From an uncultured Caldilineaceae bacterium (GTDB lineage Bacteria; Chloroflexota; Anaerolineae; 4572-78; J111): DNA of 64,000 bases. Below, piece by piece: positions 17,797-59,506 of this stretch. The position numbers and the translations under genes are program-made. Under the pieces are notes generated by a model. That model saw only the letters and a program-made list of their open reading frames with translations. It was not told where the DNA came from and ran no database searches. Position 1 is the first letter of the stretch, and every line of letters begins with the position of its first letter. The stretch lies in contig CAYUCB010000001.1 of NCBI GenBank assembly GCA_964443075.1, positions 23,778 to 87,777 of the forward strand. The letters run 5' to 3'.

Positions 17797-17957
17797 CTAT
17801 TACCTATATTTGAATCCTAATTTTTCTATACCAAATTAAAAGCCCCCTGAATATTCACTTCAGGGGCTTTTTTTATTTTTCATGAGATGTTCGTTGTAAA
17901 CTTTGTATGCACTATCCGCAAGAGTAATATGCGGCTAATGCATATGATGCAAATATA

Positions 17958-17994: not shown

Positions 17995-18057
17995 TATTTT
18001 CTGTGCATCAAATGCACTATACTTAATAGTAGATGATTTCACAAGTGGGGATGATAA

Positions 18058-23747: not shown

Positions 23748-23872
23748 ACACTTCTTTCTCTATGATATAATTACCATAAAATTTAGCCGGTTGGGAGATT
23801 GAAAGGGACTTACTCCACCCTAAAAATCTCCGTTCCTCAATCCTCTATTGAGCATACTTTCCGCAAAGTGAC

Positions 23873-24901: not shown

Positions 24902-24902
24902 C

Positions 24903-32752: not shown

Positions 32753-32772
32753 TCTGGTTACAATTTTACCGG

Positions 32773-33039
32773 CTAACGCCTCGTTCCATTATGCGGAATA
32801 ACAGCCGGGCTAACTTCAAGATGGCCTGGCTGGCGTTTGATAGACTGAAATTCGTCAGCCAGGCCAATCATTTGGGCAATGGTTTGCAGGGCATCTTCAA
32901 ACCCTTCTTTATAACCGCAAGTATAGCTATCTTCTTTGAGCAGGCGGTTAAATCGGTATTGGGCTAAATATAAAGCTTGCAGACCGTCTAACACATCGGC
33001 CCGTTGAATTGTCATCGCTCCATTTTTAAGTTCAGCCAT
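32773..33039 (-). CDS. Hypothetical small protein
   Basis: ORF only. Confidence 0.3.
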   Translation of the reverse strand: MAELKNGAMTIQRADVLDGLQALYLAQYRFNRLLKEDSYTCGYKEGFEDALQTIAQMIGLADEFQSIKRQPGHLEVSPAVIPHNGTRR

Positions 33040-33515
33040 TTTGTTTTACCTCGAACATATGTTCTATTATACCATAAAGAGGGTAGACTTTGTCAAGCCC
33101 CGTCAATAATTTTAAGAGAAAATTTAAGGCGTAAGGTAAACAAGAAATTCCTTTAGTCCAACCGCAGTTTTTACCCCTGACTGCGGCGGTAGGCTGGCTA
33201 GATTATCAGCCGTTAAAGGGTGGCTCAAAAGTGGGGAATTGAAGAGTCAATAGTTTCTCTTTCCTACGGTTCCCCCAAATAATGGGCCTAATCTTACACA
33301 AACGGCTGGTTTTGGCAAAAATCCTTAAGATTTATGGTAAAAAAATACCCCCTGCGGGCTTGGTTCAACCGGGTAACGGTAAACGCAGGGAGTATCTAAA
33401 ACCAATCTCACAGTTTAATTTTTAAGCAATCTGAGTGAAGGCTGTATTTTTCAGGGTAAACCAATTCGCCGGAAAATACAAGCGCTAAAAATGAGAAATT
33501 TGTCTCACTTTTCCC

Positions 33516-45754: not shown

Positions 45755-47212
45755 CTACTTTAGCCACCTTTCGGCCAGCGGGTTGAGGTTTTGCCCCGAG
45801 ACCCGCTGCGCCGTAACCAAAAACGTAGGCGGGCTGACCAGCCGGTAGCGGTTTTCGGCGTAGTAAGCTTGCATGACCTGCTCAAAAGCGGCTTCGCCAA
45901 TTTGCTGGCGGATAGCCCTAAAAAAGAGGGCCGCTTTGACATAAACCAGTAAATCGTAATCCGCCGGATTAAATTGAGCCGCCGGGCGATCCACTACCCC
46001 CTTAATGCCGCCCTTGACGGCGCTCTCAAACGGGATAAACCAGCGTTCGGTTAAGAATCGCTCGGCCTCAGCCCGGCCAAACACCCCTTGCAGATAAACA
46101 AAAGCGCTGTACTCGGCCAACCCTTCATCCAACCAGGGAGATTGGTAAGGATTGTTCCCTACCACCGCGTACCACCACTGATGGGCCACTTCATGAGCGG
46201 TTAGAAACGCTTGGTGGTCGCGGGGGCCGTTAAACGCTGCCTCGCCAATCAGCAGCAGGCCGCTGTACTCCATACCGCGCAGATGGAGCGGCGCTTCAAC
46301 CACATCCAATTCGGTATACGGATAAGGGCCATACCTATCGCTATACAGGCGCAAGGCGGCGGTCGCGTGGGCCAGCACCGACCGGGCGGCATCGTGTTGG
46401 CCGGGCAAGAAATAAGTGGTTACCGTGGCCCCGGCGGCGCTTTCGCTGATGGCCTGAAACGGCCCGATGATAACCGTCATATCGCGCAGCGGCCCGCCGG
46501 TAATTTGCCAGGTGCGAGTCTGGTCGGGGTTATTGCTAACGTTAACCGTCACCCCACCGGCTGCGGGCAGCAGATTGTTGGGCAGAGTCAAATCAAGCTG
46601 GTAAAGGGCCACCTCGTTAAAAAGCGCATCGCCGTGCGGCGGCGGCGCATCTAAAATCCACTCGTTCCCCTGCTTTACGGCCAGCGTGGGGTAAAAACCC
46701 GGCAGGCTCAAAATTGGGCCATCCCAGCCAAATAGGGTATAATCCGACTCGTCCAGCCAGCGTTGCCTTGGCAACTGTACCGTAAAAGCCAAATCAACCG
46801 TTACAAAATTAGCTTGGGTGGGAGGCACTGCCAACCGCACCGCCGCCCCATCGGCCAGTGGCGTGACTTCTACGGCCATTTTGTTAATTTGAGCCGCCGT
46901 AACCTGAGCGTGTCCGCCATAGTTGTCTAAATTGGGGTACAATCGAAAAACCAGTTCCGTCCCTGGTTGGGGGACACTCACCTGCGCGAGGCCTTGCAGT
47001 GTTTGGCCGCTTTCATCCAACCGAATGGTAAGGTGATAACTGGGGAGCGGGCCAAGCGTTTCGATGTCTGCCTGAGCCGAGGGTTGCAACGCCGCTCGAT
47101 AATGAAAATAAGGGTCGGGCACGGGGGTCGGCGTGATGAGGCCGGTTTTGACCAACAAAGAATCAACCGGGGTGCAGCCGGTGAGCCAAAAAAGGCAAAC
47201 GGCCCCCATCAT
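45755..47212 (-). CDS. M1-family (gluzincin) metallopeptidase, lipoprotein
   Basis: 'HEVAHQWWY' + 18 aa + 'E' (WLDEGLAEY). Lipobox 'WLTGC'. Start taken at MMGAV; the upstream extension of ORF 45755..47338 lies in ttgaaggttaaa repeats. Confidence 0.75.
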   Translation of the reverse strand: MMGAVCLFWLTGCTPVDSLLVKTGLITPTPVPDPYFHYRAALQPSAQADIETLGPLPSYHLTIRLDESGQTLQGLAQVSVPQPGTELVFRLYPNLDNYGGHAQVTAAQINKMAVEVTPLADGAAVRLAVPPTQANFVTVDLAFTVQLPRQRWLDESDYTLFGWDGPILSLPGFYPTLAVKQGNEWILDAPPPHGDALFNEVALYQLDLTLPNNLLPAAGGVTVNVSNNPDQTRTWQITGGPLRDMTVIIGPFQAISESAAGATVTTYFLPGQHDAARSVLAHATAALRLYSDRYGPYPYTELDVVEAPLHLRGMEYSGLLLIGEAAFNGPRDHQAFLTAHEVAHQWWYAVVGNNPYQSPWLDEGLAEYSAFVYLQGVFGRAEAERFLTERWFIPFESAVKGGIKGVVDRPAAQFNPADYDLLVYVKAALFFRAIRQQIGEAAFEQVMQAYYAENRYRLVSPPTFLVTAQRVSGQNLNPLAERWLK

Positions 47213-47404
47213 CGGCAAAAACCTTACGCCGCCAAAGTTAGAACGTTTGAAGGTTAAATGTTTGAAGGTTAAAATTGGCGGCTTTACCTTACCAAAGAGG
47301 TTAGAGCCTGGAACTTGATTGAATAAGTGAAAGGCCATAAGAATTGAAAAAAGTTTTTGCTTAAAAATTCAGGGTTTGTGTTATAATCCACGTGGGTATT
47401 ATTA

Positions 47405-47552
47405 TATCATAACTCAAGTTGCTACCCAGAGGTGACAGGCACTTAAAACGGGTAAATTTGAGGTGTTTTGGCCTATAGTGTCCAGAATTTAGGACAAAAA
47501 GTGCCTGTCACCTGGCGTTTAAGTTATAGGTGGCAACTTGAGTTATCATAAG
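47405..47552. repeat. Large interrupted inverted repeat (tatcataactcaagttgctacc..gtgacaggcactt / aagtgcctgtcac..ggtggcaacttgagttatcataag) with a 54-nt spacer; candidate structured RNA or MITE upstream of nuo
   Basis: Direct reading; a possible -10 'tataat' at 47383. Confidence 0.6.
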
Positions 47553-47870
47553 TATCTACTCAACCATTCCCTCCTAACCACTGACGACTGACCGCCCTAC
47601 CGTAAACAACAACCGCTTTCTCTGGCGGTCGGTAGTCTGCCGTTGGCGGTCAGGAATACCCAATTTAGGGTAGTTTGAGCAGATACGATCATAACAAAAT
47701 CTAATCTTTAATACGTTTGAGCTTAAATATCCTTTGACAAGGTGAAATCTTTGTGATAAACTTAACAAAAATTAATTATTATTATTATCATCAATTTTAT
47801 AAAAATTCTATCAAACCCTAAAGGTGTCTAAAACCTTTAGGGTTTACCTACCCCGAAAGGAGTGTGAGTC

Positions 47871-48227
47871 TTGCCCTCCGATTATCTGCCGTTGCTGATT
47901 TTTTTTCTGGCCTCCAGCTTCATTGTGGTTGTTTCGTTATGGCTACCCCACTATCTGGGGCCGTTTCGCCCCAATAAAGCCAAATCAGAAGTGGTTGAAT
48001 CGGGTAAATTAACTTATGGCGACGCTCGCCGCCGTGTGCCCATTCAATACTACCTGGTAGCCATGCTCTTCATCCTGTTCGACATCGAAGTGTTATTCTT
48101 TTATCCCTGGGCCGTGCTCTTTTGGGATTTAAAATGGTATGGTTTACTGCAAATTGGCGTTTTTGCTTTGCTGCTGGTAGAAAGCTTCATTTACATCTGG
48201 AAGAAAGGAGCGCTGGAATGGGAGTAG
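47871..48227 (+). CDS. nuoA: NADH-quinone oxidoreductase subunit A
   Basis: TTG start after an 'aaaggag' RBS; NuoA 3-TM sequence. Confidence 0.85.
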
Positions 48228-48748
48228 CTGTTGGTATCCCCACACCCCAGGAACTGGAAGCTGTCCAGGCCGAAGGAAAAACCGGCAGTATGGGCTTTGC
48301 CCTGGCTCATCTGGAAGATGCGGTTAATTGGGGGCGCTCTAACTCTATTTGGCCGCTGTTGTTTGGGCTGGCCTGCTGCGCCATTGAGCAAATTTCGGCG
48401 GGGATGCCCCGCTTTGATATTGCCCGCTTTGGCTCAGAAGTGTTTCGCGCCTCTCCCCGCCAGGCCGATTTGTTGATTGTTTCCGGGCGTGTTTCTAACA
48501 AAATGGCCCCGGTGATTAAGCGGGTGTATGACCAGATGTCTTACCCCAAGTGGGTGATTGCGATGGGTGATTGCGCTTCGTGCGGGGGGCCGTTTAATAA
48601 TTACGCCATTGTGCAGGGGGTTGATAAAATTTTGCCGGTTGACGTGTATGTACCCGGCTGCCCTCCCCGCCCAGAGGCGCTTTTCTACGCCATCATTATG
48701 CTGCAAAAGAAAATCCGGGCTGAAGAAAAATTAGGTATTCGAGAGTAA
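48218..48748 (+). CDS. nuoB: NADH-quinone oxidoreductase subunit B
   Basis: 'CCAIEQ..GMPRFD', '[10 protein letters not shown]', 'VPGCPPRPE'. Start at ATG 48218, overlapping nuoA. Confidence 0.9.
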
Positions 48749-48856
48749 AAAAACATAATCCAGAGGTAGCCGACTCTATAGGCGTAAAACTTGTTTTGGG
48801 CCTGATTGGGCTGCCTGGGGTTTTGTGGCGCTTGTTTATAATGGGATACTCATGCC

Positions 48857-50617
48857 ATGACCGATATTGTTGAAAAATTACAGGCAACCTTTCCGGCGGG
48901 TATAACCGGGCGCACTGAATTTCAAGGGGACCTGACTTTGCATGTCGCCCCCGAAAATTGGTCCGAGGTGGCCCTTTTTTTACGTGATGACCCGGACATG
49001 CAGTATGACCTGCTGGTTGACGTGTACGGCACCGACCGGCTCAAGTTGGGCCAGTCGCCCCGTTTTGCCGCTAACTACGAATTATATTCTATCCTCCACA
49101 ACAAATTTTTACGGATTATCGTTGCCGCCCCCGACCCGGCGATCACCGGCAATGGCGCAGATGCCTTACCGACCCTCTCTACGGTGACGAATGTTTGGCC
49201 TACAGCCGATTGGCTGGAGCGCGAAACCTACGACCTGATGGGTCTTAATTTTAAGGGCCACCCCTGGATGCACCGGATTATGATGCCCGATAATTGGGTG
49301 GGCCACCCCCTGCGCAAAGATTATGCTCTGGGCGGTGAGCCGGTCTATTTTAGCCATGACCGCCATAACCCCCGTTTTGCTCACCTGGGCAAAGAAATTA
49401 TGGTGGGGCCATCTTACATGACCGACCTGCCCGAAGACATGGACAGCGACGAGCATATGGTCATCAACCTGGGGCCGCATCACCCGGCCACGCACGGAGT
49501 ACTGCGTCTGGCGGTTGAACTGGATGGCGAGGTGGTGCTAAAAGTTAGCCCGGAACTGGGCTACCTGCACTCCGGCTTTGAGAAAACCGGCGAAAATAAA
49601 CGCTACGAAAAATTCATCCCCTACTGCGACCGGATGGATTACGCCGCGCCGATGAACAACAACCTGGCCTACGTGTTGACGGTTGAGCGCTTGCTGGAGG
49701 TGGAAATTCCTGAGTACGCTCAATACGTGCGGGTTATCTGCGCCGAGTTGCAACGTATCGGCAGCCACATGATTTGGCTGGGGACTCACGCCATGGATGT
49801 CAGCGGTACCGGCCACGCCCTGGTCATGTACTGCTTTAACATGCGCGAGCGCATCCTTGATCTGTTTGAAATGGTCTGCGGCGCGCGGATGACCACCAGC
49901 TACTTTAGCGTGGGCGGCTTGCGTTGGCCGCTGCCCGGCGCATTTATCGAGTCTACCCGCGCTTTTTTAAAGGAATTTACCTGGAACCTTAAAGAGTTTG
50001 AGACCATGCTGACTCGCAACCCCATCTGGTTGAGCCGAACCAAGGGCGTGGGTTTTCTGCGAGATAAAGAGGCCATTGGCCTGGGCATCACCGGGCCGCT
50101 GCTGCGGGCCGCCGGCGTGCCGCTCGATTTGCGCAAAGTGCGCCCTTATTCCGGTTACGATCAGTTTGATTTTGACATTCCCACCTCTACCAACGCCGAT
50201 TGCTACGCTCGCTACGAGGTGCGGATTCTGGAGTTGGGCCAGAGCATGCGGATCATTGAACAGGCCCTCAACAAACTCAAACCCGGCCCCTACCGCACCG
50301 AAGACCGCAAAGTGGCCTTGCCCCCCCGCGAAGAAATTACCACCAGTATGGAATCGCTCATTCACCACTTTAAACTGGTCACCGAAGGCTATCGCCCGCC
50401 GGTGGGGCAGATTTACAATGTGGCTGAAAACCCCAAAGGCTGGTTGGGCTTTGGCCTTATCAGTGATGGCACGTCCGTGCCGCACCGCTTGCGGGTGCGC
50501 GGCCCCTCGTTTGTTAACCTCCAAGCCACCGACCCGATGGCCCGCCATGGCTACATGTCGGACTTGATTACCATTATCGGCTCTATTGATATTGTACTGG
50601 GTGAGGTAGACAGGTAA
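48857..50617 (+). CDS. nuoCD: NADH-quinone oxidoreductase fused subunits C/D
   Basis: N-terminal 30-kDa NuoC-like plus 49-kDa NuoD 'NLGPHHPATHGVLRL'. Confidence 0.9.
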   Translation: MTDIVEKLQATFPAGITGRTEFQGDLTLHVAPENWSEVALFLRDDPDMQYDLLVDVYGTDRLKLGQSPRFAANYELYSILHNKFLRIIVAAPDPAITGNGADALPTLSTVTNVWPTADWLERETYDLMGLNFKGHPWMHRIMMPDNWVGHPLRKDYALGGEPVYFSHDRHNPRFAHLGKEIMVGPSYMTDLPEDMDSDEHMVINLGPHHPATHGVLRLAVELDGEVVLKVSPELGYLHSGFEKTGENKRYEKFIPYCDRMDYAAPMNNNLAYVLTVERLLEVEIPEYAQYVRVICAELQRIGSHMIWLGTHAMDVSGTGHALVMYCFNMRERILDLFEMVCGARMTTSYFSVGGLRWPLPGAFIESTRAFLKEFTWNLKEFETMLTRNPIWLSRTKGVGFLRDKEAIGLGITGPLLRAAGVPLDLRKVRPYSGYDQFDFDIPTSTNADCYARYEVRILELGQSMRIIEQALNKLKPGPYRTEDRKVALPPREEITTSMESLIHHFKLVTEGYRPPVGQIYNVAENPKGWLGFGLISDGTSVPHRLRVRGPSFVNLQATDPMARHGYMSDLITIIGSIDIVLGEVDR

Positions 50618-51105
50618 TGTGGTCTGATAAAGAACAACAAGCCCTTGACGAAATTTTGAAAAAGTACCCGCCCGAGCGCAAAATGTCGGCGGTTTTGCCG
50701 GCGTTATATCTGGCCCAGCAGGAGAAAAACTGGTTGGATGAGGCTGACATCGCCGCCGTGGCTGAGGCGCTGGATATATCTGTCACCCACGTTCATTCCA
50801 TCATCGGTTTTTATACCCTCTTTCGCAAAGAGCCGGTGGGCAAATATATGCTGCAAGTTTGCACCGATTTGCCTTGCGCCCTGCGCGGCGCGGAAGCCTT
50901 TTTCAAGCGGCTGTGCCAGCGCATGGAACTCGGCCCCGAAGGCGGTACCACCGCCGATGGCCTTTTTACCGTCGAGCCGGTGGTTTGCCTGGCCGCCTGC
51001 GATAAAGCGCCATGTATGCAGCTTAACCTGGATTATTACGAGAACCTGACCGACGCGGAAATTGACGCGATCATCGCCCGGCTGCGGGCAGCGGAGACAA
51101 AGTAG
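50617..51105 (+). CDS. nuoE: NADH-quinone oxidoreductase subunit E
   Basis: 'CTDLPCALRGA ... CLAACDKAPCMQLN' 2Fe-2S motifs. Confidence 0.9.
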   Translation: MWSDKEQQALDEILKKYPPERKMSAVLPALYLAQQEKNWLDEADIAAVAEALDISVTHVHSIIGFYTLFRKEPVGKYMLQVCTDLPCALRGAEAFFKRLCQRMELGPEGGTTADGLFTVEPVVCLAACDKAPCMQLNLDYYENLTDAEIDAIIARLRAAETK

Positions 51106-51117
51106 GCTGAGAAGTAA

Positions 51118-51399
51118 TTGGGGGTCATGATGTCATTAAAAACCACATCGGCCTATATTACCACCATTAATCCTGACCATACGGTGGTACTGCCGCCAGA
51201 AATGCCGGTAGGGGCAACCATTGCCGTAATTGTTATGCCTGAAACAGTTGTTGGGGCTGACGACATGGCTCGCCACACTCGTTTTGAGGCTACCTTATCA
51301 GCTATTCGGGCTGCTTCTGCCGCTCAACCAATAGTTATTTCTGATGAGAAATTGGATATCTTGATTGAGCAAGCGCGGAAGGCTTCTAATTTTCTGTGA
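51118..51399 (+). CDS. Antitoxin-like small protein inside the nuo operon
   Basis: Small ORF overlapping a truncated PIN-like ORF. Confidence 0.35.
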   Translation: MGVMMSLKTTSAYITTINPDHTVVLPPEMPVGATIAVIVMPETVVGADDMARHTRFEATLSAIRAASAAQPIVISDEKLDILIEQARKASNFL

Positions 51400-51559
51400 C
51401 CCTTATGATGATAAAGTGATTGCTACCGCTATCTTTGGGATGGCTGATTATTTAGTAACGGAAGATAACGACTTGAGAACCCCTGCTATCCTCAATGCGC
51501 TTTTTCAATCTGGCATTGAGGTTATTTCGATGACTGAGTTAATCAAGCTGCTTGATTAA
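51365..51559 (+). pseudogene. Truncated PIN-domain (VapC-like) toxin remnant
   Basis: 'DDKVIATAIFGMADYLVTEDNDL' matches only the C-terminal half of PIN domains (D..IAA.A...A.LVT.D.D). Only 64 aa. Confidence 0.45.
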
Positions 51560-51644
51560 TAAGGATACCGAAAAAGCAGGTTATCGTTATGAAGATTTAC
51601 GATGAATGATATTATACTTGTAAAGTAATTCTTGGAGGTGTTGG

Positions 51645-51899
51645 ATGGTTGCGCCTTTTGAAATGACCAAAGCCTACGAGGAAGTGATTGATTTTATCGC
51701 CGCCGGAACGGATCCTGGTAGTATTATTGCCTTTCAACCCTCAGTTGCGGTTAAAGAGCGTATCGCTGATTTAATTTACCGTGAGAAAGCGGTAGGGCTT
51801 TCAGCCGAAGAAAAGGCTGAATTAGACAATTACATGCAACTTGAGCATTTAATGCGGTTAGCCAAAGCTCGCGCCCGTCAATACCTTGTCAATGAGTAG
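51645..51899 (+). CDS. Hypothetical small protein preceding the HNH endonuclease
   Basis: Overlaps the HNH gene start by 14 nt. Confidence 0.4.
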   Translation: MVAPFEMTKAYEEVIDFIAAGTDPGSIIAFQPSVAVKERIADLIYREKAVGLSAEEKAELDNYMQLEHLMRLAKARARQYLVNE

Positions 51900-52332
51900 T
51901 CATGTTAGTGCGGCTTTGCGCCAGTTAGTGTTTGTTCGGGCTGATTATTTGTGTGAATACTGTTTGATTCATGAAGATGACACCTTTTTTGGTTGTCAGG
52001 TTGACCATATCATTAGCGTAAAACATGGGGGTGCTACCGAAGCGAATAATTTGGCTTACGCTTGCGGTTTTTGCAATCGTCAAAAAGGCAGTGATATTGG
52101 TTCTATCTCTCGCCAAAGCGGACAAATCATCCGGTTTTTTAATCCGCGAACAGATAATTGGTCTGACCATTTTGAACTTGAGGGTGCTGTTATTAAATCT
52201 TTAACCGAAATTGGTGAGGTTACGGCTCGAATTTTGGGGTTTAATGATAGTGATCGCCTTTTAGAACGGCGAATCTTGATGGCTGTGGGGCGGTATCCCA
52301 CTATTGATGCATTGGCTCGTATGAGAGGATAG
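51886..52332 (+). CDS. HNH endonuclease
   Basis: 'CEYCLIHEDDTFFGCQVDHIISVKHGGATEANNLAYACGFCNRQKGS' zinc-HNH motif. Confidence 0.8.
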   Translation: MSMSSHVSAALRQLVFVRADYLCEYCLIHEDDTFFGCQVDHIISVKHGGATEANNLAYACGFCNRQKGSDIGSISRQSGQIIRFFNPRTDNWSDHFELEGAVIKSLTEIGEVTARILGFNDSDRLLERRILMAVGRYPTIDALARMRG

Positions 52333-52333
52333 T

Positions 52334-53605
52334 ATGGCCAACAAATTCCTAGAAAAACACGTCCTATTTCGACACCGCGACGTAGAAAATATCCGCGATA
52401 TTGACGTTTACCTGGCTAACGATGGCTACAAAGCGCTGGAACGCGCCCTGAAAGAGTCAACCCCCGAGGGGGTGATGAATGAAGTAAAAGCCTCTGGTCT
52501 TCGCGGGCGTGGTGGAGCCGGTTTTCCGGCGGGCGTCAAGTGGAGTTTCATCCCCAAAAATATCTCGCCCAAATACATTGTGGTTAACGGCGATGAAAGC
52601 GAACCCGGCACCTTTAAAGACCGGGAGATTATGGAGAGCAACCCCCACCAATTCATCGAGGGGGTGATTTTGTGCGCTTACGCCGTCGGCGCGGAAACGG
52701 CTTACATTTACGGGCGCGGCGAATTTAAACCCGTTTTTAACGGCTCTCAAGGGCTGCAACAGGCGGTTGACGCGGCTTACGCCAAAGGATTTTTGGGTAA
52801 AAACATCCTCGGCAGCGATTTTTCAATGGATATTTACCTGCACCTCGGTGCGGGAGCCTACATTTGCGGCGAAGAAACCGCTCTGCTCAACAGCCTGGAA
52901 GGGCTGATGGGCCAGCCGCGCAGCCGCCCTCCTTTTCCGGCGGTAGAAGGGTTGTACGCCAAGCCGACCGTCATCAACAACGTCGAAACGCTGACCAATG
53001 TACCGCCGATTGTGCTCAATGGGGCGCAGTGGTATCGCCAATTTGGCACCGAAAAAAGCCCCGGCACCAAAATCTTCAGCCTCAGTGGGCGGGTCAACCG
53101 GCCCGGCAATTATGAGCTGCCTCTGGGCCTGCCCATCCGCTATCTGATTGAGGAATGTGGCGGCGGTATTATTGAGGGCAAACAGGTCAAAGGGATTTTA
53201 CCGGCAGGGGCCTCATCGGCCATTATTGGGCCGGATAAGCTGGATACGCCGATGGATTACGAAGCGATGGCCGCCGCCGGAACGATGCTCGGTTCGGCCT
53301 CCTTCATTATTCTCGATGAAACCATTGACGCGGTTTGGGCCGCCGAGAAAAACGTGAAATTCTTTAAGCACGAAAGCTGCGGCAAATGCAGTCCCTGCCG
53401 CGAAGGGACTCACTGGTTAGCCGGTGTTTACGCCAAACTGCGTGAGGGTCGCGGCTCTCAAGAGGATGTGCAAATGCTGACCACCATCATCGAACAGATG
53501 GAAGGCAACTGCTTCTGCCTGCTGGGCGAGTTTGTGGTTCCCGGTGTGCGCACCAGTTTGAAGTTATTTGCTAATGAGTATGAGGCGCTGGCGGTGGATA
53601 AGTAG
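52334..53605 (+). CDS. nuoF: NADH-quinone oxidoreductase subunit F
   Basis: 'GRGGAGFPAGVKW', 'ESCGKCSPCREG'. Confidence 0.9.
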   Translation: MANKFLEKHVLFRHRDVENIRDIDVYLANDGYKALERALKESTPEGVMNEVKASGLRGRGGAGFPAGVKWSFIPKNISPKYIVVNGDESEPGTFKDREIMESNPHQFIEGVILCAYAVGAETAYIYGRGEFKPVFNGSQGLQQAVDAAYAKGFLGKNILGSDFSMDIYLHLGAGAYICGEETALLNSLEGLMGQPRSRPPFPAVEGLYAKPTVINNVETLTNVPPIVLNGAQWYRQFGTEKSPGTKIFSLSGRVNRPGNYELPLGLPIRYLIEECGGGIIEGKQVKGILPAGASSAIIGPDKLDTPMDYEAMAAAGTMLGSASFIILDETIDAVWAAEKNVKFFKHESCGKCSPCREGTHWLAGVYAKLREGRGSQEDVQMLTTIIEQMEGNCFCLLGEFVVPGVRTSLKLFANEYEALAVDK

Positions 53606-53814
53606 TTGGGTGGAATTACTGGAATTATTTTTGAATCAACTCAGAGGGTGTTTCTTAAAGGTCATTCTGAGGCCGAAGGCCGAAGAATCCCTGAAACGGC
53701 CTCTTGCAAGTGGCGGTTTTAGGGACTCTTCGCTCTCGTTGGTCGCTCTGAGTAACATGGTGAGGTTGATTTTTAACCAGGTTCGATTTAAGAAACACGC
53801 TCTCAGGAGAAACT

Positions 53815-55521
53815 ATGGCAATTTGGAAATCATATAGAGTATCCGACATCATAACCGAGATTGAGGATAAAAAATTTGTTCTTCCCGTTATTCAAAGACG
53901 CCTTGTCTGGGATGAGGAAAAAATGGAACTCCTCTTTGATACCTTACTTAAAGGTGACTCCTTTGGTGGAATAATGGTTATTGAAGAAGAGAAAAATAGT
54001 AAACCACTTTTTAGTTTTAGAACTTTCACAAAAGATGGTGATATTATAGCTTCTATACAGGTTGACCAACTAACACAACTTCAAGACTTCGTAATTGACG
54101 GACAACAAAGACTTCAATCATTTTACATTGGTCTGAAAGGTAGTATTAATGGGCAAGTACTATACTTTGACTTGTTTAGTGACTACAAGATTCAATTTGA
54201 GTTCAAATTTGAAAACGATGCTAATAAATTACCCAAACAATCAAAAGATAATAATGCTGATAGAGCAATCCCGGAACATAATTGGTATTTAGCAAGTAGC
54301 TTACTAAAAAGATTGAAGGAAACTCACGATAATGAGCAGGTTGCCAGCGAAATTATCGCAAATCAGAATATAATAGACGACATCAAGAAGACCCACATAA
54401 ATAGAAATGTTAGCGCATTCTTTAGAAATGTTATAACTTCCGAGACTCTTGGTATATCTAAGGTTGTCATAAACAAATCCTACGACGAAACTGCTAACAG
54501 GCAAAGAATAGTTGAATTATTCAGAAGATTAAATGACGGCGCGACAAAACTTTCATCGTTTGATTTGGTTGCATCTAAGCTTAAAGGATTTGCCTGGGAG
54601 ATGGAAGGCTTTTTAGAAGAAACATTAAGGAACTACGAAGAAATCGGACTTTCTCAAGATAACCTGATAAAACTTATTTTTCTCCTTCAAGGCAATCACA
54701 ATAAGGAAATGGCTTCTATTGAAGGGACTGATGCTGATTTTGCAATCAAAAATAGAGAAAGAATAAACTCTACCTTAAAAAGTCTTAAAGACTTTTTAGT
54801 TCACTCCAAACTATATGATTATTACAAAGACGGCAATCGTTCTTTCATTCCCTTGTTTTTTATAGCGCATCACATTTTTCATAAACAAATCAGTAATGAT
54901 GAAGTAAATAGATTTTTCGACAACTTTGATGCCGGTAATACAGAATTTTCAAAAATGAAAATATGGGTTTTCCATTCTTTGATTAATGGCGTTTTCCGTA
55001 GCAGAGGAGTAGGTTGGATACCTTATAAAACAGGAATAAGAAAACTTCTTGAAGAAATACGAAAATATAAAAACTTCGATTTTCCTGTTGAAAAACTATT
55101 TCAAGTCTACCGGGACCATCCAATTACTTTTACGACACAATATGGAACTTCTAATTTAGACCAACTTGACAATTCATTTTTGTTTTACTTAATGTATGAT
55201 CTCAATCGGACTATAAGAATTCAAGATACTGATCACATAATGCCAAAATCAATTTTAGAAGCAAAACATTATGATCAGTCAAAAATTAACAGTATCAAAA
55301 ACTATCAGCTCATAGACTTTGGAACTAATCGGGGGGAGAAAAATGCCAAACCTTTTAAGGATTGGATTAATAATCCGGCATACGTTTCTGACAAACAGGC
55401 ATTTGTAAAGAGACATTTAATTCCGTCCGATGAAAGAATTTGGATTGAGGATAAGTTTGAAGAATTTATAAATGCAAGAGCGCAACTTATTCTTACTCAA
55501 ATGAGAAACTCTATACAATAA
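53815..55521 (+). CDS. GmrSD-family (DUF262 + DUF1524) type IV restriction-like nuclease
   Basis: N-terminal 'VIDGQQRLQS' (DUF262 DGQQR), C-terminal 'DTDHIMPKS' (DUF1524 His-Me finger). Strongly AT-rich relative to the flanking nuo genes. Confidence 0.75.
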   Translation: MAIWKSYRVSDIITEIEDKKFVLPVIQRRLVWDEEKMELLFDTLLKGDSFGGIMVIEEEKNSKPLFSFRTFTKDGDIIASIQVDQLTQLQDFVIDGQQRLQSFYIGLKGSINGQVLYFDLFSDYKIQFEFKFENDANKLPKQSKDNNADRAIPEHNWYLASSLLKRLKETHDNEQVASEIIANQNIIDDIKKTHINRNVSAFFRNVITSETLGISKVVINKSYDETANRQRIVELFRRLNDGATKLSSFDLVASKLKGFAWEMEGFLEETLRNYEEIGLSQDNLIKLIFLLQGNHNKEMASIEGTDADFAIKNRERINSTLKSLKDFLVHSKLYDYYKDGNRSFIPLFFIAHHIFHKQISNDEVNRFFDNFDAGNTEFSKMKIWVFHSLINGVFRSRGVGWIPYKTGIRKLLEEIRKYKNFDFPVEKLFQVYRDHPITFTTQYGTSNLDQLDNSFLFYLMYDLNRTIRIQDTDHIMPKSILEAKHYDQSKINSIKNYQLIDFGTNRGEKNAKPFKDWINNPAYVSDKQAFVKRHLIPSDERIWIEDKFEEFINARAQLILTQMRNSIQ

Positions 55522-55557
55522 AGAGGTCGTCAGATTGTAAAAACGTAAGGCTATAGA

Positions 55558-55760
55558 GATGATAGGGGATGCGGTAAAACTGGCTAAAATAGAGTCTCTT
55601 GAATTAACGGTTGAAGAATTGGCCCAGATATTGCTGACACTTGACTAGGACGAACTGGATACTTTAGAGATTCTTTTAAACCCGCAAGCGTGTCTCACGA
55701 TTGAACAATCTCTGCAAGACATTGAGGAAGGTCATGCCCTTCCGTTTGAAAAATGGTAAC
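55558..55760 (+). pseudogene. Possible frameshifted YefM/Phd-like antitoxin remnant
   Basis: Two short frames: MIGDAVKLAKIESLELTVEELAQILLTLD and ...LDTLEILLNPQACLTIEQSLQDIEEGHALPFEKW. The latter resembles the YefM C-terminus. Confidence 0.3.
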
Positions 55761-55797
55761 GATGGATGAGTTATCAAATTGATTGGAAAGGTTCCCA

Positions 55798-58458
55798 ATG
55801 CCAGATAGCACTGTTACTGTAACCATAGATGGCATTCAAGTCGCCGTTCCCAAAGGAACGTTAATTGTCGAAGCGGCCAAACGGGTAGGCCTTGAAATCC
55901 CGGTTTTTTGTTACCACGCCAAGCTTGACCCCGTGGGGATGTGCCGCATGTGCCTGGTAGAAGTGGGCACGCCGGTGATGGACCCGGCGACCAAACAGCC
56001 TACTTTAGACCAAGATGGCAAACCGGTTATCCGCTTTATGCCTAAACCCACCACCGCCTGCACCACCCCGGTGACCGATGGCATGGCCGTTAAGGTCAAT
56101 TCCGAGGCGTCGCTGGCCGACCGCAAGGCGGTACTGGAATTTTTGCTCACCAGCCACCCCCTGGATTGCCCCATTTGCGATAAAGGCGGCGAATGTCCCC
56201 TGCAAGACCTGACCATTCGCCACGGGCCGGGTAACAGCCGCTTTGATTACGAGGACAAGCAGCATTTCCCCAAAAAATATCCGCTGGGCGACCTGATTGT
56301 GCTGGATATGGAGCGCTGTATCATCTGCACTCGCTGCACCCGCTTTCAATCAGAAGTGGCCCACGACCCGGTGCTGGCGGTAGAAGAACGGGGCCGACAC
56401 GCCCATATCGTCAGTTATTCTAACCCGCCCTTTGATAGCCACTATTCCGGCAACACCACCGATGTCTGCCCAGTGGGGGCTTTAACCACCCGCGATTTTC
56501 GCTTTGGGGCGCGAGCCTGGGAACTGACCAATATCCCCAGTATTTGCAACCATTGCAGCGTGGGCTGTAACACCGTTTTGAGCACGCGGGCCGGCCAGAT
56601 TAAACGGGTCATGCCCCGCCAGAACGAAATCGTCAATGAAATTTGGCTGTGCGACAAAGGCCGCTTTGGGCATCACTTTAACGGCAGCCCTAATCGTTTA
56701 ACCACCCCCCTGGTGCGTCAGGGCGACCAGTTGGTTGAAGCGACTTGGGGCGATGCCCTCAGCCTGGTAGCCCGCAAATTTGGCGAAATCAAAACCGCGC
56801 ACGGGCCTAACGCTTTGGGCGGTCTGGCCGGAGCGCGCCTATCGAATGAAGACCTCTACCTCTTTCAAAAATTCTTCCGCCAGGTGATTGGCACTCACAA
56901 TATAGACCATCGTATCGGCCTGAGTGCGGCCCTGGAAGATGAAACCGCCTACACCGTAGGGGTCGGCGTGGGCACCGACCTGGGGCGCGTAGGCAAAGGT
57001 TCTACCATTCTGGTTGTCGGTTGTGATCTGGATCAGGAAGCCCCTATTCTTTACCTGCGGGTGGCCGGAGCGGCGGTTAAGCGAGGCGCGCATGTAATTA
57101 ATGCCGGCGGGCGGCGCACCAAGCTCGATGCCCAGGCCAAAACCAGCCTGCACTACCGTTATGGGACGGCGACGCACCTGGCTCTGGGGCTGTTAGCTTC
57201 GGTGGTGCAGCAGGGCTTGGTGGCTCAAGCTTGGGTTGACAGCCATACCACCGGTTTGGCCGATTTAGCGGAGTCATTAAAGAATTACACCCCTGAGCAG
57301 GTGGCGGCAGTAACGGGTATCGCTGCCTCTGAAATTGAGGCCGCCGCCAAAGCCTTTGCCGAGGCTCAGAACGGTATCATCCTCTTTGGCATGGAAGCGG
57401 GCAACGACCCGGCCCTGCGAGCGGCTTTAGAAAATTTGGCTCTGATTACCGGCCATGCCGGTAAACCTGATAGCGGCCTCATCGCCGTACTGCCTCACGT
57501 CAACAGCCGGGGCGCGGCGGATATGGGCCTGGTGCCTCACCGTCTGCCCGGTTATGTGCCGGTTGAAGCGGGTCAAGAAGGGCTGTCAGCGGTAGAAATG
57601 TTGACTGGCAAGGTCAAGGCGATGCTGATTGCCGGGGCCGACCCCGCCGCCGAAAGCGCTGCTTACAAAGCGTCTCTGGAGCAGTTAGACTTTTTGGTGG
57701 TGCAAGAGTTGTTCCTCACCGAAACGGCTCAACTGGCCGATGTGGTGCTGCCCGCGCAGGGCGTGGCCGAGCGTGACGGCTCTTTCACCAACGCCGAGCG
57801 CCGGGTGCAGGCGTTTGACTCCGGCGTTCCCGCTCCGGGCAAGGCCTGGGCCGACTGGTTGATTGTGTCGGTACTGGCGGGGCAGATGGGGACCGATTGG
57901 CCTTACGCTTCAGCCGATGGGGTGATGGCTGAAATTACCCAAACTGTGCCGCTTTACGCCGCTACAAAATTTGAAAATCTGGTCGCGCCGGTTTCGCTGA
58001 CCCGCCAAACGTCGCACTACATTTACTCCGGCATGAGTTTTACCGCTGATGTGCGCGAAGGCGTGCAGTGGCCTACGCTGGCCGAGCAAGAGTCGGCCAA
58101 AATTGCTTTGCGCTTCATCGCCCCGGCCCAACCGTCGGACGACAGCGGCTTGACTCTGGTAGCGCCACGTTTTCTTTATGATGATGGTCGTCTGCTGGCC
58201 GAGACCGAGCTGGTTCAGCCGCATCTTCACCGGCCCAAACTGCTGATTTCCCCGGCAGACGCGCAACAGTTAGGGCTTAATAACGGCGATATGGTAACAG
58301 TCTCGCAAAACGGGAGCGCCGTAACCCTGCCGGTGCAGGTCAACCGGCAATTAAGCCAGGGCGTGGCCCTCACCCCTCGCAATCTGGCCGGTCGCCCGGC
58401 GGAGCAGCTTTTGGGGCCGGGTGGTTTGTACGGAACGGTTAAAATTAAGAAGGATTAA
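55798..58458 (+). CDS. nuoG: NADH-quinone oxidoreductase subunit G
   Basis: N-terminal 2Fe-2S/4Fe-4S Cys clusters and a molybdopterin-oxidoreductase-like domain. ATG at 55798. Confidence 0.9.
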   Translation: MPDSTVTVTIDGIQVAVPKGTLIVEAAKRVGLEIPVFCYHAKLDPVGMCRMCLVEVGTPVMDPATKQPTLDQDGKPVIRFMPKPTTACTTPVTDGMAVKVNSEASLADRKAVLEFLLTSHPLDCPICDKGGECPLQDLTIRHGPGNSRFDYEDKQHFPKKYPLGDLIVLDMERCIICTRCTRFQSEVAHDPVLAVEERGRHAHIVSYSNPPFDSHYSGNTTDVCPVGALTTRDFRFGARAWELTNIPSICNHCSVGCNTVLSTRAGQIKRVMPRQNEIVNEIWLCDKGRFGHHFNGSPNRLTTPLVRQGDQLVEATWGDALSLVARKFGEIKTAHGPNALGGLAGARLSNEDLYLFQKFFRQVIGTHNIDHRIGLSAALEDETAYTVGVGVGTDLGRVGKGSTILVVGCDLDQEAPILYLRVAGAAVKRGAHVINAGGRRTKLDAQAKTSLHYRYGTATHLALGLLASVVQQGLVAQAWVDSHTTGLADLAESLKNYTPEQVAAVTGIAASEIEAAAKAFAEAQNGIILFGMEAGNDPALRAALENLALITGHAGKPDSGLIAVLPHVNSRGAADMGLVPHRLPGYVPVEAGQEGLSAVEMLTGKVKAMLIAGADPAAESAAYKASLEQLDFLVVQELFLTETAQLADVVLPAQGVAERDGSFTNAERRVQAFDSGVPAPGKAWADWLIVSVLAGQMGTDWPYASADGVMAEITQTVPLYAATKFENLVAPVSLTRQTSHYIYSGMSFTADVREGVQWPTLAEQESAKIALRFIAPAQPSDDSGLTLVAPRFLYDDGRLLAETELVQPHLHRPKLLISPADAQQLGLNNGDMVTVSQNGSAVTLPVQVNRQLSQGVALTPRNLAGRPAEQLLGPGGLYGTVKIKKD

Positions 58459-58462
58459 GGCA

Positions 58463-59506
58463 ATGGATCCGCAACTTATTCAATACCTGGTAGTGCTGAT
58501 TCAGTCGTTTATTATCGCTACCGTGCTGATGCTGGGGTTTGGCCTGCTGACGGTGGTTGAGCGTAAAACCGTGGCCCGTTTTACCTTACGCTACGGCCCT
58601 AACCGGGTGGGCAAATTCGGCTCGCTGCAAATTCTGGCCGATATGCTGAAGATGTTCTTTAAAGAAGAAATCATCCCCGGCCATGTGGATAAAATTGTGT
58701 ATCTGATGGCTCCCGGTATTGCGTTGGTGCCGGCGCTGCTGGCGATTGCGGTCATTCCCATTGCCCGCGAGCCGGTGGTGCTGCCGTTTGAGGTGTTTGG
58801 GGCGACGATTACCATTTACCCCTGGATTGCTGATGTGAATGTGGGGGTACTCTACTTGCTGGCTGTCGGCAGTTTAGCCACGTACGGAGTTATTTTGGGG
58901 GGCTGGTCAAGCAATAACAAATACTCGTTGTTGGGCGGGCTGCGCACCAGTTCGCAGATGCTCAGTTACGAGCTGCCGTTGGGCGCGGCGATGTTAAGTG
59001 TAATTTTGATGGCCGGCTCATTTCAGTTGACGACTATTGCTGAAATGCAGGGAAAATTGGGCGGGTTGGGCTGGTTTATCTTTGTTCAGCCGATAGCCTT
59101 TCTTATTTTCTTTATCAGCGCTCTGGCCGAATCGGGCCGGGCGCCGTTTGACCTGCCGGAAACCGAAAATGAGTTGATTGGCGGCTTTGCCACCGAGTAT
59201 GGCGGTATGAAGTTTGGCCTCTTCTTTGGGGCGGAATACGTTCACGTCATTATTCTAAGTTGTATTGCCACTGCTCTCTTCTTGGGCGGCTGGCAGGGGC
59301 CGCTGGCAATGCAAATTCCCTTGTTACAGCCGCTTTACTTTGTGCTTAAAGTGGGGGTGATGATTTTTGTGATTATGTGGGTGCGGGCCAGCGTACCCCG
59401 CGTGCGCTTTGATAAGATGATGCGCTTCTGCTGGCGCTTTTTACTGCCGCTGGGGATGATTAACCTGGCGGTAACCGCCTTAGTTTTAGCCGTATTGAAT
59501 TTTTAA
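58463..59506 (+). CDS. nuoH: NADH-quinone oxidoreductase subunit H
   Basis: Typical NuoH TM protein; start MDPQLIQYL. Confidence 0.9.
   Translation: MDPQLIQYLVVLIQSFIIATVLMLGFGLLTVVERKTVARFTLRYGPNRVGKFGSLQILADMLKMFFKEEIIPGHVDKIVYLMAPGIALVPALLAIAVIPIAREPVVLPFEVFGATITIYPWIADVNVGVLYLLAVGSLATYGVILGGWSSNNKYSLLGGLRTSSQMLSYELPLGAAMLSVILMAGSFQLTTIAEMQGKLGGLGWFIFVQPIAFLIFFISALAESGRAPFDLPETENELIGGFATEYGGMKFGLFFGAEYVHVIILSCIATALFLGGWQGPLAMQIPLLQPLYFVLKVGVMIFVIMWVRASVPRVRFDKMMRFCWRFLLPLGMINLAVTALVLAVLNF

What the first reader, a model, noticed from the sequence alone, without database searches (positions are those of the whole stretch)
51106..52333. nuoE-nuoF junction invaded by a toxin-antitoxin remnant (antitoxin-like + truncated PIN) and a small-protein + HNH endonuclease cassette
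Four small ORFs sit inside an otherwise canonical Complex I operon: a 93-aa antitoxin-like protein overlapping a 64-aa PIN C-terminal fragment (pseudogene), then an 84-aa protein overlapping a zinc-HNH endonuclease. Selfish cassettes nested in a core respiratory operon are unusual and imply read-through tolerance.
Basis: partly seen in the sequence, partly recalled or inferred. Interest (0 to 1): 0.6.

Follow-up and report, generated by a model that had tools for sequence, protein, structure and literature searches.

The report
Toxin-antitoxin cassettes inside Complex I operon
Two small, horizontally acquired toxin-antitoxin-type gene pairs, one already disabled and one intact but uncharacterised, sit between two genes of the respiratory Complex I operon of an Anaerolineae bacterium, at a position where related species often carry other such cassettes.

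Summary
Four co-directional ORFs fill a 1,228-bp low-GC gap (0.38-0.47, against 0.55-0.58 in the nuo genes) between nuoE and nuoF.

The first pair is an antitoxin gene plus the 3' third of a PIN_3 toxin gene. An intact homologous pair in another genome shows that about 261 bp were deleted here, removing the toxin's first ~83 codons.

The second pair is intact: an 84-aa helical protein and a 146-aa zinc-HNH nuclease, overlapping by 8 nt. It belongs to a large, unnamed two-gene module family found in Chloroflexota and Cyanobacteria. It occurs on cyanobacterial plasmids and was not found in phages. The partner was directly upstream in every context I read. I read it as a probable toxin-antitoxin or defence pair; this is not tested.

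None of 80 related nuo loci carries any of these genes, and several close relatives have empty sites of 55-206 bp. It is therefore an insertion, not an accessory subunit.

The rarity claim does not hold in this class. The nuoD|E, E|F and F|G junctions are recurrently occupied (33 of 221, against 3 of 359 at other junctions), often by PIN, HicB, HEPN, PARIS, HEC-01 or Uma2 cargo. In this window nuoF|G also holds a GmrSD/HEC-05 gene. Read-through transcription is plausible but not shown.

The parts
50617..51105 (+). nuoE (Complex I 24-kDa, 2Fe-2S subunit). Left flank of the insertion.
   Evidence: PF01257 at 1.5e-46, full-length match. Its ATG overlaps the nuoCD stop.
51130..51399 (+). Antitoxin gene of a PIN_3-type module, 89 aa (93 aa from TTG 51118; ATG 51127 is also possible). 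Its last five codons (ASNFL) are new sequence created by the deletion.
   Evidence: No Pfam, NCBIfam, PADLOC or PHROG family. Only 4 homologues were found. In L092 a 60%-identical 90-aa homologue lies 4 nt upstream of an intact PIN_3 gene.
51383..51384 (+). Deletion junction. About 261 bp are missing relative to the intact module: the antitoxin's last 4 codons and stop, the spacer, and PIN codons 1 to ~83.
   Evidence: DNA alignment with L092 (intact) and L091 (independently truncated).
51386..51559 (+). PIN_3 toxin remnant (pseudogene), equivalent to residues ~84-136 plus the tail of a 147-aa PIN. The mechanical ORF is 51365-51559.
   Evidence: PIN_3 profile positions 87-114 of 115 only. TIGR00305 positions 85-112 of 115. 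53% identity to L092 PIN residues 84-136. No upstream PIN sequence in any frame.
51560..51644 (+). AT-rich 85-nt spacer between the two cassettes. It ends in GGAGG, the Shine-Dalgarno sequence for the 84-aa ORF.
   Evidence: Sequence. No significant RNA structure, z = -0.44. No consensus promoter called. Upstream sequence is not conserved among homologous modules.
51645..51899 (+). 84-aa four-helix partner protein of the HNH nuclease (putative antitoxin or inhibitor).
   Evidence: 1,687 clusters and 1,943 representatives at 50% identity. Directly upstream of the HNH gene in every context read. No Pfam model. No PDB relative by sequence or fold. AF2 model is all-helical, pLDDT 75.
51892..52332 (+). 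146-aa zinc-HNH nuclease (putative toxin or effector). It overlaps the partner gene by 8 nt (ATGAGTAG). Its last codons contain the nuoF ribosome-binding site (AGAGGA).
   Evidence: PF01844 at 6e-12. PADLOC PtuB models down to 6e-9. 3,551 homologues. C21, C24, D38, H39, N53, C58, C61 and N62 are invariant in the family and present here.
52334..53605 (+). nuoF (Complex I 51-kDa FMN subunit). Right flank. It starts 1 nt after the HNH stop codon.
   Evidence: PF01512 at 2.3e-44, plus PF10589 and SLBB. 90% identical to the closest relatives.
53640..53806 (.). Context: a nested inverted repeat (MITE-like hairpin) between nuoF and the next inserted gene.
   Evidence: 20-nt arms at 90% complementarity plus an inner 30-nt palindrome. 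RNA fold -71.6 kcal/mol, z = -4.56. Single copy in the window.
53815..55521 (+). Context: a second insertion in the same operon, between nuoF and nuoG. A 568-aa GmrSD-type (DUF262) protein, GC 0.30-0.36.
   Evidence: PF03235 GmrSD_N at 1.7e-22. PADLOC HEC-05 at 1.3e-44, full length. GC profile. The nuoF-nuoG gap is 50 bp at the median in relatives.

Best explanation
The nuoE-nuoF spacer holds a recent, horizontally acquired insertion of two tandem, co-directional two-gene cassettes built like type II toxin-antitoxin modules.

Cassette 1 was a VapBC-like pair: a small antitoxin plus a PIN_3 ribonuclease. A ~261-bp deletion removed the toxin's start and its first ~83 codons, including the N-terminal catalytic acidic residues. 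An antitoxin ORF and a dead toxin stub remain.

Cassette 2 is intact. An 84-aa four-helix protein is translationally coupled, through an 8-nt ATGAGTAG overlap, to a 146-aa CCCC-zinc HNH nuclease of the PtuB-like kind. The likely mechanism, inferred and not shown, is that the nuclease is the toxic effector and the small partner binds and neutralises it. If the partner is lost or titrated, for example after loss of the cassette or during phage infection, the nuclease would be freed.

Both cassettes lack recognisable promoters and terminators and are packed 21 nt after nuoE and 1 nt before nuoF. They are therefore most likely transcribed with the nuo operon, with nuoF translated from a ribosome-binding site inside the HNH 3' end (inferred).

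The site is not special to this genome. Across Anaerolineae, the borders of nuoE, nuoF and nuoG repeatedly receive such cargo.
For: Insertion.
- GC dip.
- Empty sites of 55-206 bp in close relatives L007, L010, L011, L012, L013 and L023.
- No homologue of any of the four ORFs in 80 related nuo loci.

Cassette 1.
- The intact antitoxin + PIN_3 pair in L092.
- Alignment showing the ~261-bp deletion, and an independent 5' truncation in L091.

Cassette 2.
- The HNH domain is significant and its catalytic and zinc residues are intact.
- The partner is directly upstream in each of the seven distinct loci read at ~70% identity, six of them with the same ATGAGTAG overlap.
- The partner is also upstream on two cyanobacterial plasmids, where the nuclease is 48-51% and the partner 37-41% identical. 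The partner therefore diverges faster, as antitoxins usually do.
- Neighbourhoods are unrelated to each other and rich in other toxin-antitoxin-like pairs (XisH/XisI, DUF433/DUF5615, DUF6883/DUF4926).
- 32 plasmids and 0 phage records carry a relative.
- PtuB-like PADLOC hits.

Co-transcription.
- Same strand and tight spacing.
- Terminator-like sites are no more frequent than in shuffled sequence.

Recurrent site.
- Junction occupancy above 300 bp is 33 of 221 at D|E, E|F and F|G, against 3 of 359 at the other six junctions.
- Cargo includes HEC-01, PARIS, MazE-PIN, RHH-PIN, DUF4258 with an MqsA-like protein, NTase-HEPN, HicB and Uma2.
Against: - No toxicity, neutralisation, binding or expression data exist for the 84-aa/HNH pair. 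The toxin-antitoxin label rests on architecture and distribution only.
- The partner matches no known antitoxin family or fold.
- The 93-aa ORF matches no family. Its antitoxin status rests on synteny in a single genome (L092).
- No target-site duplication, inverted repeats or integrase mark the borders, so the insertion mechanism is unknown.
- The junction statistics are not corrected for shared ancestry, and part of the cargo in relatives is native-GC housekeeping-type genes (PMT_2-like, Big_5/PHP, OB-fold proteins).
- Sister lineages with 3-5 kb between nuoE and nuoF suggest nuoF may not depend on read-through at all.
Confidence: 0.7

Rival explanations
1. The 84-aa/HNH pair is a two-gene anti-phage defence system, a minimal Septu or retron I-A type effector without the ATPase, rather than a classical addiction module. 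The small protein would act as sensor or inhibitor, and the PtuB-like HNH would cut phage or host nucleic acid (possibly tRNA) on infection. This overlaps with the main explanation and differs in the trigger.
For: - PADLOC PtuB models match residues 23-132 at down to 6e-9, and the retron I-A HNH model also matches.
- The best PDB fold hit is a chain of the retron-Eco7 complex, but it is not significant (E 2.6).
- The same operon holds a HEC-05/GmrSD gene, and relatives' slots hold HEC-01 and PARIS.
- The abstract of PMC13096335 states that Septu acts by cleaving tRNA-Tyr.
Against: - No PtuA-like ATPase or reverse transcriptase is nearby.
- The protein is about 100 aa shorter than the PtuB models.
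- No NCBIfam PtuB-type model is hit.
- The partner has no PADLOC hit.
- No phage-challenge data exist.
Confidence: 0.3
2. The HNH gene is a free-standing homing endonuclease that targets the conserved nuoE/nuoF region and copied itself into the spacer by 'intronless homing', as phage T4-type mobile endonucleases do.
For: - It lies exactly between two highly conserved genes, with almost no spare sequence.
- The HNH domain is typical of homing enzymes, and PHROG HNH families match it.
Against: - Homologues at ~70% identity sit in unrelated neighbourhoods, none near nuo genes.
- None of 80 nuo loci carries it.
- No phage record has a relative at E <= 1e-10.
- It always travels with the small partner gene, which homing endonucleases do not need.
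- No DNA-binding extension (NUMOD or IENR type) was detected.
Confidence: 0.05
3. The four ORFs are lineage-specific accessory or assembly factors of Complex I, kept in the operon because they act on NuoE or NuoF.
For: Co-orientation and tight packing within the operon.
Against: - Absent from all 80 related nuo loci and from 12 metagenomic relatives.
- Foreign base composition.
- One ORF is a truncated pseudogene.
- Homologues of both pairs occur away from nuo genes.
Confidence: 0.02
4. The arrangement is an assembly chimera that joins a toxin-antitoxin island to nuo genes.
For: The window may come from a metagenome-assembled genome. The nuoE-side junction is not covered by independent contigs.
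Against: - Two contigs from separate runs are identical across the deletion junction, cassette 2 and 114-127 nt of nuoF.
- Reading frames, the ribosome-binding site and the spacing are coherent.
Confidence: 0.03

Closest known systems
VapBC-type type II toxin-antitoxin modules with a PIN_3 (PF13470 / TIGR00305) toxin
   Same: Cassette 1 has the order antitoxin then PIN. An intact relative has a 90-aa antitoxin and a 147-aa PIN_3 toxin 4 nt apart. Decay by loss of the toxin with the antitoxin kept is the usual fate of such modules (established knowledge).
   Different: Here the toxin is a stub lacking residues 1 to ~83. The antitoxin family is tiny (4 clusters found) and matches no named antitoxin family such as AbrB/MazE, RHH or Phd.
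PtuB, the HNH nuclease of Septu, and the HNH effector of type I-A retrons
   Same: A CCCC-zinc HNH core followed by a helical C-terminal region. PADLOC PtuB and HNH_I-A models match most of the protein. The nuclease is held in check by a partner until triggered (published for Septu and retron I-A; abstracts listed).
   Different: There is no PtuA ATPase, reverse transcriptase or msDNA. The partner is an 84-aa helical protein of an unnamed family. The protein is much shorter (146 aa against ~200-250 aa). No significant sequence or fold match to solved PtuB-type chains.
Free-standing HNH homing endonucleases of phages (T4 Mob/Seg-type 'intronless homing')
   Same: A small HNH gene wedged between conserved genes with minimal intergenic sequence.
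   Different: The family was not found in phage records. Its genomic contexts vary. It has an obligatory partner gene. It is absent from all other nuo operons examined.
Defence-island and integration hotspots flanked by core genes
   Same: The same inter-gene positions in different species hold different defence or toxin-antitoxin cargo: HEC-01, HEC-05, PARIS, PIN, HEPN, HicB and Uma2.
   Different: The hotspots lie inside a single essential-type operon, between cistrons. They hold one or two cassettes rather than islands. They show no integrase, tRNA gene or repeats at the borders.

Membership tests
Type II toxin-antitoxin, VapBC / PIN_3 (cassette 1) | The toxin carries a complete PIN domain with its conserved acidic residues. 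| tested here: not met
   Only profile positions 87-114 of 115 are present. Residues 1 to ~83 are deleted relative to L092. This is a remnant, not a functional member.
Type II toxin-antitoxin, VapBC / PIN_3 (cassette 1) | A small antitoxin gene lies immediately upstream of the toxin, co-oriented. | tested here: met
   The o93 homologue lies 4 nt upstream of an intact PIN_3 gene in L092. The order is the same in the window.
Type II toxin-antitoxin, VapBC / PIN_3 (cassette 1) | The antitoxin belongs to a recognised antitoxin fold (AbrB/MazE, RHH, Phd, HTH). | tested here: inconclusive
   No hit in Pfam, NCBIfam, PADLOC or PHROGs. Its structure was not modelled.
HNH endonuclease (PF01844, beta-beta-alpha-metal fold) | The HNH motif with catalytic His, the Asn, and two Cys-X2-Cys zinc pairs. 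| tested here: met
   PF01844 at 45.9 bits against a cut-off of 21.4. C21/C24, D38-H39, N53 and C58/C61-N62 are invariant across 38 family members, including the window copy.
Type II toxin-antitoxin (cassette 2: 84-aa protein + HNH) | A conserved two-gene operon, small protein first, with overlapping or adjacent ORFs and a patchy, mobile distribution. | tested here: met
   The partner is upstream in all nine contexts read, and six loci share the window's 8-nt ATGAGTAG overlap. Neighbourhoods are unrelated. Relatives occur on 32 plasmids.
Type II toxin-antitoxin (cassette 2: 84-aa protein + HNH) | The toxin arrests growth, and the antitoxin neutralises it by direct binding. | not testable with these tools
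   This needs expression and rescue assays and a binding test.
Septu (PtuA + PtuB) | A PtuA ABC/AAA-type ATPase is encoded next to the HNH protein PtuB. | tested here: not met
   No ATPase lies in 51106-52333 or in the homologous loci. Only the HNH protein resembles PtuB.
Homing endonuclease (free-standing HNH) | A conserved, site-specific genomic position among homologues, typically in phage or intron contexts. | tested here: not met
   Contexts differ in every locus read. No phage match.
Complex I accessory subunit | Conserved within orthologous nuo operons. | tested here: not met
   No tblastn hit to any of the four ORFs in 80 nuo loci. Empty sites exist in close relatives.
Polycistronic co-transcription with nuo (read-through) | A continuous transcript from nuoE through the cassettes into nuoF. 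| not testable with these tools
   Only indirect support: the same strand, 21-nt and 1-nt spacers, and no terminator excess. No RNA data.

The most novel reading that the evidence does not exclude
Two linked claims.

(1) The cistron borders around the NADH-oxidising module of Complex I (nuoD|E, E|F, F|G) are a class-wide landing pad in Anaerolineae. Promoter-less toxin-antitoxin and anti-phage cassettes settle there, where they gain transcription from an indispensable operon and are protected from deletion by it.

(2) The 84-aa/HNH pair is a new, widespread two-gene toxin-antitoxin or defence family. It comprises about 2,000 partner clusters at 50% identity and about 3,500 HNH clusters. Source names place members in Chloroflexota, Cyanobacteria, Blastocatellia (Acidobacteriota) and the Thermodesulfobacteriota/'Deltaproteobacteria'. 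A PtuB-like nuclease would be restrained by a previously undescribed four-helix inhibitor.
Probability: 0.35. Interest if true: 0.65.

Novelty: new variant of a known kind. Interest (0 to 1): 0.45.

Why it matters
As a single locus this is ordinary selfish-DNA biology: toxin-antitoxin cassettes land in a spacer and one of them decays. Two things go further.

First, the intact cassette belongs to a large, conserved gene-pair family with no Pfam model for the partner, no solved structure and no description in the literature I could search. It is a well-defined candidate for a new nuclease toxin and inhibitor pair related to Septu/retron effectors, and it is easy to test.

Second, one particular part of a core respiratory operon is repeatedly used as an insertion site across a bacterial class, and this genome has two occupied junctions. 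That bears on how operons tolerate foreign cistrons. It also asks whether mobile cassettes exploit essential operons for expression and retention, and whether nuoEFG is a separately regulated unit in Chloroflexota.

Tried and rejected
- Exact-sequence look-ups with the TTG-start HNH, with NuoE and with P0121 found nothing. I could not name the source genome.
- I looked for target-site duplications, terminal inverted repeats or a conserved empty-site sequence at the borders. None were found; only short chance-level repeats appeared, and the spacers of relatives do not align.
- Promoter and terminator scans gave counts no different from shuffled sequence. No + strand promoter was called ahead of the 84-aa ORF or nuoF.
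- Rfam scan of 47000-59000: no RNA family.
- Upstream regions of homologous 84-aa/HNH modules share no conserved operator or promoter.
- The partner protein had no hit by PDB sequence or profile search, by Foldseek, or in a Pfam scan of 60 diverse members. One member carries an AF2212-like N-terminus, and 6 of 60 give weak DUF7667 hits.
- The AF2 model of the HNH protein is poor in the catalytic core (pLDDT below 50 for residues 12-68), so its fold search is uninformative.
- Literature searches for HNH toxins in toxin-antitoxin systems, for toxin-antitoxin modules in nuo operons and for the SRA run numbers gave nothing relevant.
- The metagenome scan with NuoE found no near-identical strain (best 83%), so I could not assess presence/absence polymorphism within the species.
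- Look-up of the closest partner homologue (P0125, 94% identical) returned gene calls but no DNA.
- The accessory-subunit, homing-endonuclease and chimera readings were considered and rejected for the reasons given under the rival explanations.
Full report
**1. What is in the sequence**

The + strand from 47871 to beyond 63000 encodes a Complex I operon: nuoA, nuoB, a fused nuoCD (48857-50617), nuoE (50617-51105), nuoF (52334-53605), nuoG (55783-58458), then nuoH-L.

- 51118-51399, 93 aa. The database-called start is ATG 51130, giving 89 aa.
- 51365-51559, 64 aa.
- 51645-51899, 84 aa.
- 51886/51892-52332, 148 or 146 aa.

The packing is tight:
- 21 nt separate the nuoE stop from the first ATG.
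- The first two ORFs overlap by 35 nt.
- An 85-nt AT-rich spacer follows.
- The last two ORFs overlap by 8 nt (ATGAGTAG).
- One nucleotide separates the HNH stop from the nuoF ATG, so the nuoF ribosome-binding site (AGAGGA) lies inside the HNH coding sequence.

GC falls from 0.55-0.58 in the nuo genes to 0.38-0.47 in the block.

Two contigs assembled from separate sequencing runs are 100% identical to window 51273-52461. The right-hand two thirds of the arrangement, including the junction with nuoF, is therefore independently confirmed.

**2. Cassette 1 is a decayed PIN_3 toxin-antitoxin module**

The 64-aa ORF matches only the last 28 positions of the PIN_3 profile (E 3e-4) and of TIGR00305 (E 1.5e-4). 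Taken alone these hits are below the curated cut-offs.

The 93-aa ORF matches no family and has only four homologous clusters in 5.8 billion proteins. The context of those homologues settles its role:
- In L092 (GCA_040961535.1) a 60%-identical 90-aa protein lies 4 nt upstream of an intact 147-aa PIN_3 protein (E 7e-17, full profile).
- The window's fragment aligns to residues 84-136 of that toxin at 53% identity.
- A DNA alignment shows the window lacks about 261 bp. The missing stretch covers the antitoxin's last four codons and stop, the spacer, and PIN codons 1 to ~83. The junction is at 51383|51384.
- No PIN N-terminus survives in any frame.
- A third genome (L091) carries an independent 5' truncation that keeps residues 52-144.

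The 'antitoxin-like + truncated PIN pseudogene' reading is therefore correct. The pattern of a dead toxin with a retained antitoxin has arisen at least twice in this small family.

**3. Cassette 2 is an intact member of a large, unnamed two-gene family**

The nuclease:
- It has a significant HNH domain (PF01844, 6e-12).
- Every residue that is invariant in 38 family members is present in the window copy: C21, C24, D38, H39, N53, C58, C61 and N62.
- It has 3,551 homologous clusters. The best are 67-74% identical and come from Chloroflexota and Cyanobacteria.

The partner:
- In each of the seven distinct loci I read, an 80-88-aa homologue of the 84-aa ORF (~69% identical) lies directly upstream. 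In six of them it overlaps by the same ATGAGTAG.
- On cyanobacterial plasmids more distant modules keep the pairing. The nuclease is 48-51% identical and the partner 37-41% identical, for example WP_044523710.1 + WP_010999635.1 on pCC7120alpha. The partner therefore diverges faster than the nuclease.
- The partner family is large: 1,687 clusters, or 1,943 representatives at 50% identity, 680 of them at E <= 1e-10.
- It has no Pfam model and no relative in the PDB by sequence, profile or fold. The sources call it 'hypothetical protein' wherever they name it (one JGI record is evidently mislabelled).
- Its AF2 model is four helices at moderate confidence (pLDDT 75).

Distribution and resemblances:
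- Neighbourhoods differ in every locus and often include other toxin-antitoxin-like pairs.
- 32 plasmid records and no phage record carry a relative.
- Upstream DNA is not conserved between contexts, so the mobile unit is essentially the two ORFs.
- The nuclease resembles PtuB of Septu and the HNH of type I-A retrons in PADLOC (down to 6e-9 over residues 23-132). There is no ATPase or reverse transcriptase nearby. No solved PtuB-type chain is matched significantly.

On architecture, coupling, patchy distribution and the relative rates of divergence, I read this as a type II toxin-antitoxin-like or defence pair, with the HNH as effector and the helical protein as its inhibitor. No step of that mechanism has been tested.

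**4. It is an insertion**

A scan of one genome per species with NuoF returned 80 nuo loci from Anaerolineae (record titles: Caldilineaceae, Anaerolineales, Thermoflexales and others). The closest are 90% identical.
- None contains a homologue of any of the four ORFs, or of the GmrSD gene.
- Among the close relatives (NuoF 80-90% identical), the nuoE-nuoF distance is 55-206 bp in L007, L010, L011, L012, L013 and L023.

The borders carry no target-site duplication, inverted repeats or integrase. How the cassettes arrived is unknown.

**5. The site is a recurrent one, so 'unusual' needs qualifying**

In the same 80 loci I measured every junction from nuoA to nuoJ. Spacers longer than 300 bp occur as follows:

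| Junction | Occupied / loci measured |
|---|---|
| A\|B | 0 / 59 |
| B\|C | 1 / 61 |
| C\|D | 1 / 65 |
| D\|E | 6 / 71 |
| E\|F | 12 / 74 |
| F\|G | 15 / 76 |
| G\|H | 0 / 59 |
| H\|I | 0 / 58 |
| I\|J | 1 / 57 |

That is 33 of 221 around nuoE/F/G against 3 of 359 elsewhere (odds ratio 21, p = 6e-12). The test is not corrected for shared ancestry. Counted by distinct cargo, there are roughly 19 types at the three 'hot' junctions against 3 at the six others.

Much of the cargo is low-GC toxin-antitoxin or defence material:

| Locus | Junction | Cargo |
|---|---|---|
| L004 | E\|F | HEC-01 (AAA_21 ATPase + DUF4276) |
| L016 | F\|G | PARIS-type AriA + AriB |
| L032 | D\|E | MazE + PIN |
| L018 | F\|G | RHH + PIN |
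| L018 | E\|F | Uma2 |
| L059 | D\|E | DUF4258 + MqsA-like |
| L047, L065 | F\|G | NTase-HEPN |
| L064 | F\|G | HicB-like |
| L017, L019 | F\|G | AbiEii-like NTase |

Other cargo has host-like GC:
- a ~980-aa PMT_2-like membrane protein at E|F in L005, L008, L009, L015, L094, L095, L098 and L099;
- a Big_5/PHP protein at E|F in L006 and L008;
- OB-fold proteins at F|G in the Roseilinea/Thermoflexales group.

In the window itself nuoF|G is also occupied, by a 568-aa GmrSD/HEC-05 gene at GC 0.30-0.36. It is preceded by a 167-nt hairpin element.

Spacer length does not explain the pattern. E|F and D|E are normally the tightest non-overlapping junctions (medians 3 and 6 bp), whereas B|C, H|I and I|J have 33-53-bp spacers and are almost never used.

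**6. Transcription**

The same strand, the minimal spacers and the absence of any excess of terminator-like hairpins fit co-transcription with nuo. They also fit translation of nuoF from a site inside the HNH gene.

This is inference only. Sister lineages separate nuoE and nuoF by 3-5 kb of native genes, so the clade may already run nuoF-onwards from its own promoter. In that case no special 'read-through tolerance' is implied.

**7. Verdict**

The locus is an example of a known kind of event: toxin-antitoxin cassettes colonising an intergenic spacer, with one decaying.

Two things add value. The intact pair belongs to a large family with no Pfam model and no description that I could find. And the N-module borders of the nuo operon are repeatedly colonised across Anaerolineae, twice in this genome. 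Both are worth a targeted follow-up. Neither is yet shown to be functionally meaningful.

Noticed in passing
window 53815-55521 (+): A second foreign gene in the same operon, between nuoF and nuoG. It is a 568-aa GmrSD_N/DUF262 protein that matches PADLOC HEC-05 over its full length (1.3e-44). GC is 0.30-0.36. The sequence 'DTDHIMPKS' near the C-terminus looks like a DUF1524-type His-Me motif, but no Pfam GmrSD_C hit was returned.
   Followed up: partly
window 53640-53806: A nested inverted repeat (20-nt outer arms, 30-nt inner palindrome) directly after nuoF and before the GmrSD gene. As RNA it folds at -71.6 kcal/mol (z = -4.56). It is MITE-like and occurs once in the window. It might mark the border of the second insertion, or act as an RNA stabiliser or attenuator.
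   Followed up: partly
window 55560-55760 (+): Between the GmrSD stop and nuoG lies a ~65-codon reading frame interrupted by an in-frame TAG (55646-55648): MIGDAVKLAKIESLELTVEELAQILLTLD*DELDTLEILLNPQACLTIEQSLQDIEEGHALPFEKW. By eye it resembles the C-terminal part of Phd/YefM-type antitoxins, but no Pfam family was hit.
   Followed up: partly
L005, L008, L009, L015, L094, L095, L098, L099 (between nuoE and nuoF): A ~980-aa PMT_2-like (glycosyltransferase family 39-type) membrane protein with host-like GC sits between nuoE and nuoF in many members of the clade. In L008 a Big_5/PKD/PHP protein accompanies it. The nuoE|F junction was therefore opened long ago in this lineage, and nuoF may have its own promoter.
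   Followed up: partly
L016 1564-3791; L004 4240-6008: Complete candidate defence systems inside nuo operons of relatives. L016 has a PARIS-type AriA + AriB (DUF4435) pair at nuoF|G (AriB 2.5e-29). L004 has a HEC-01 pair (AAA_21 ATPase + DUF4276) at nuoE|F. Both are low in GC.
   Followed up: yes
L091 5001-5600: An independent 5' truncation of the PIN_3 toxin next to an intact antitoxin homologue (residues 52-144 kept). This is a second case of toxin loss with antitoxin retention in this four-member family.
   Followed up: yes
L130 (pCC7120alpha 64268-66193): On the Nostoc PCC 7120 alpha plasmid, the homologous partner + HNH pair lies immediately upstream of a site-specific integrase gene.
   Followed up: no
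window 7201-10600, 17401-18200, 23601-25800, 32401-33600: Further low-GC islands (minima 0.33-0.42 against a window mean of 0.52). They may be additional foreign insertions. I did not examine them.
   Followed up: no
JGI sample 3300075153, 949-bp contig carrying P0125 (no DNA returned): The closest partner homologue (94% identical) sits on a contig where a gene of at least 91 aa ends 90 nt upstream. In the window the PIN stub ends 85 nt upstream. This may be a related locus with a longer, possibly intact, PIN gene next to the same HNH cassette, which would mean the two cassettes travel together.
   Followed up: no
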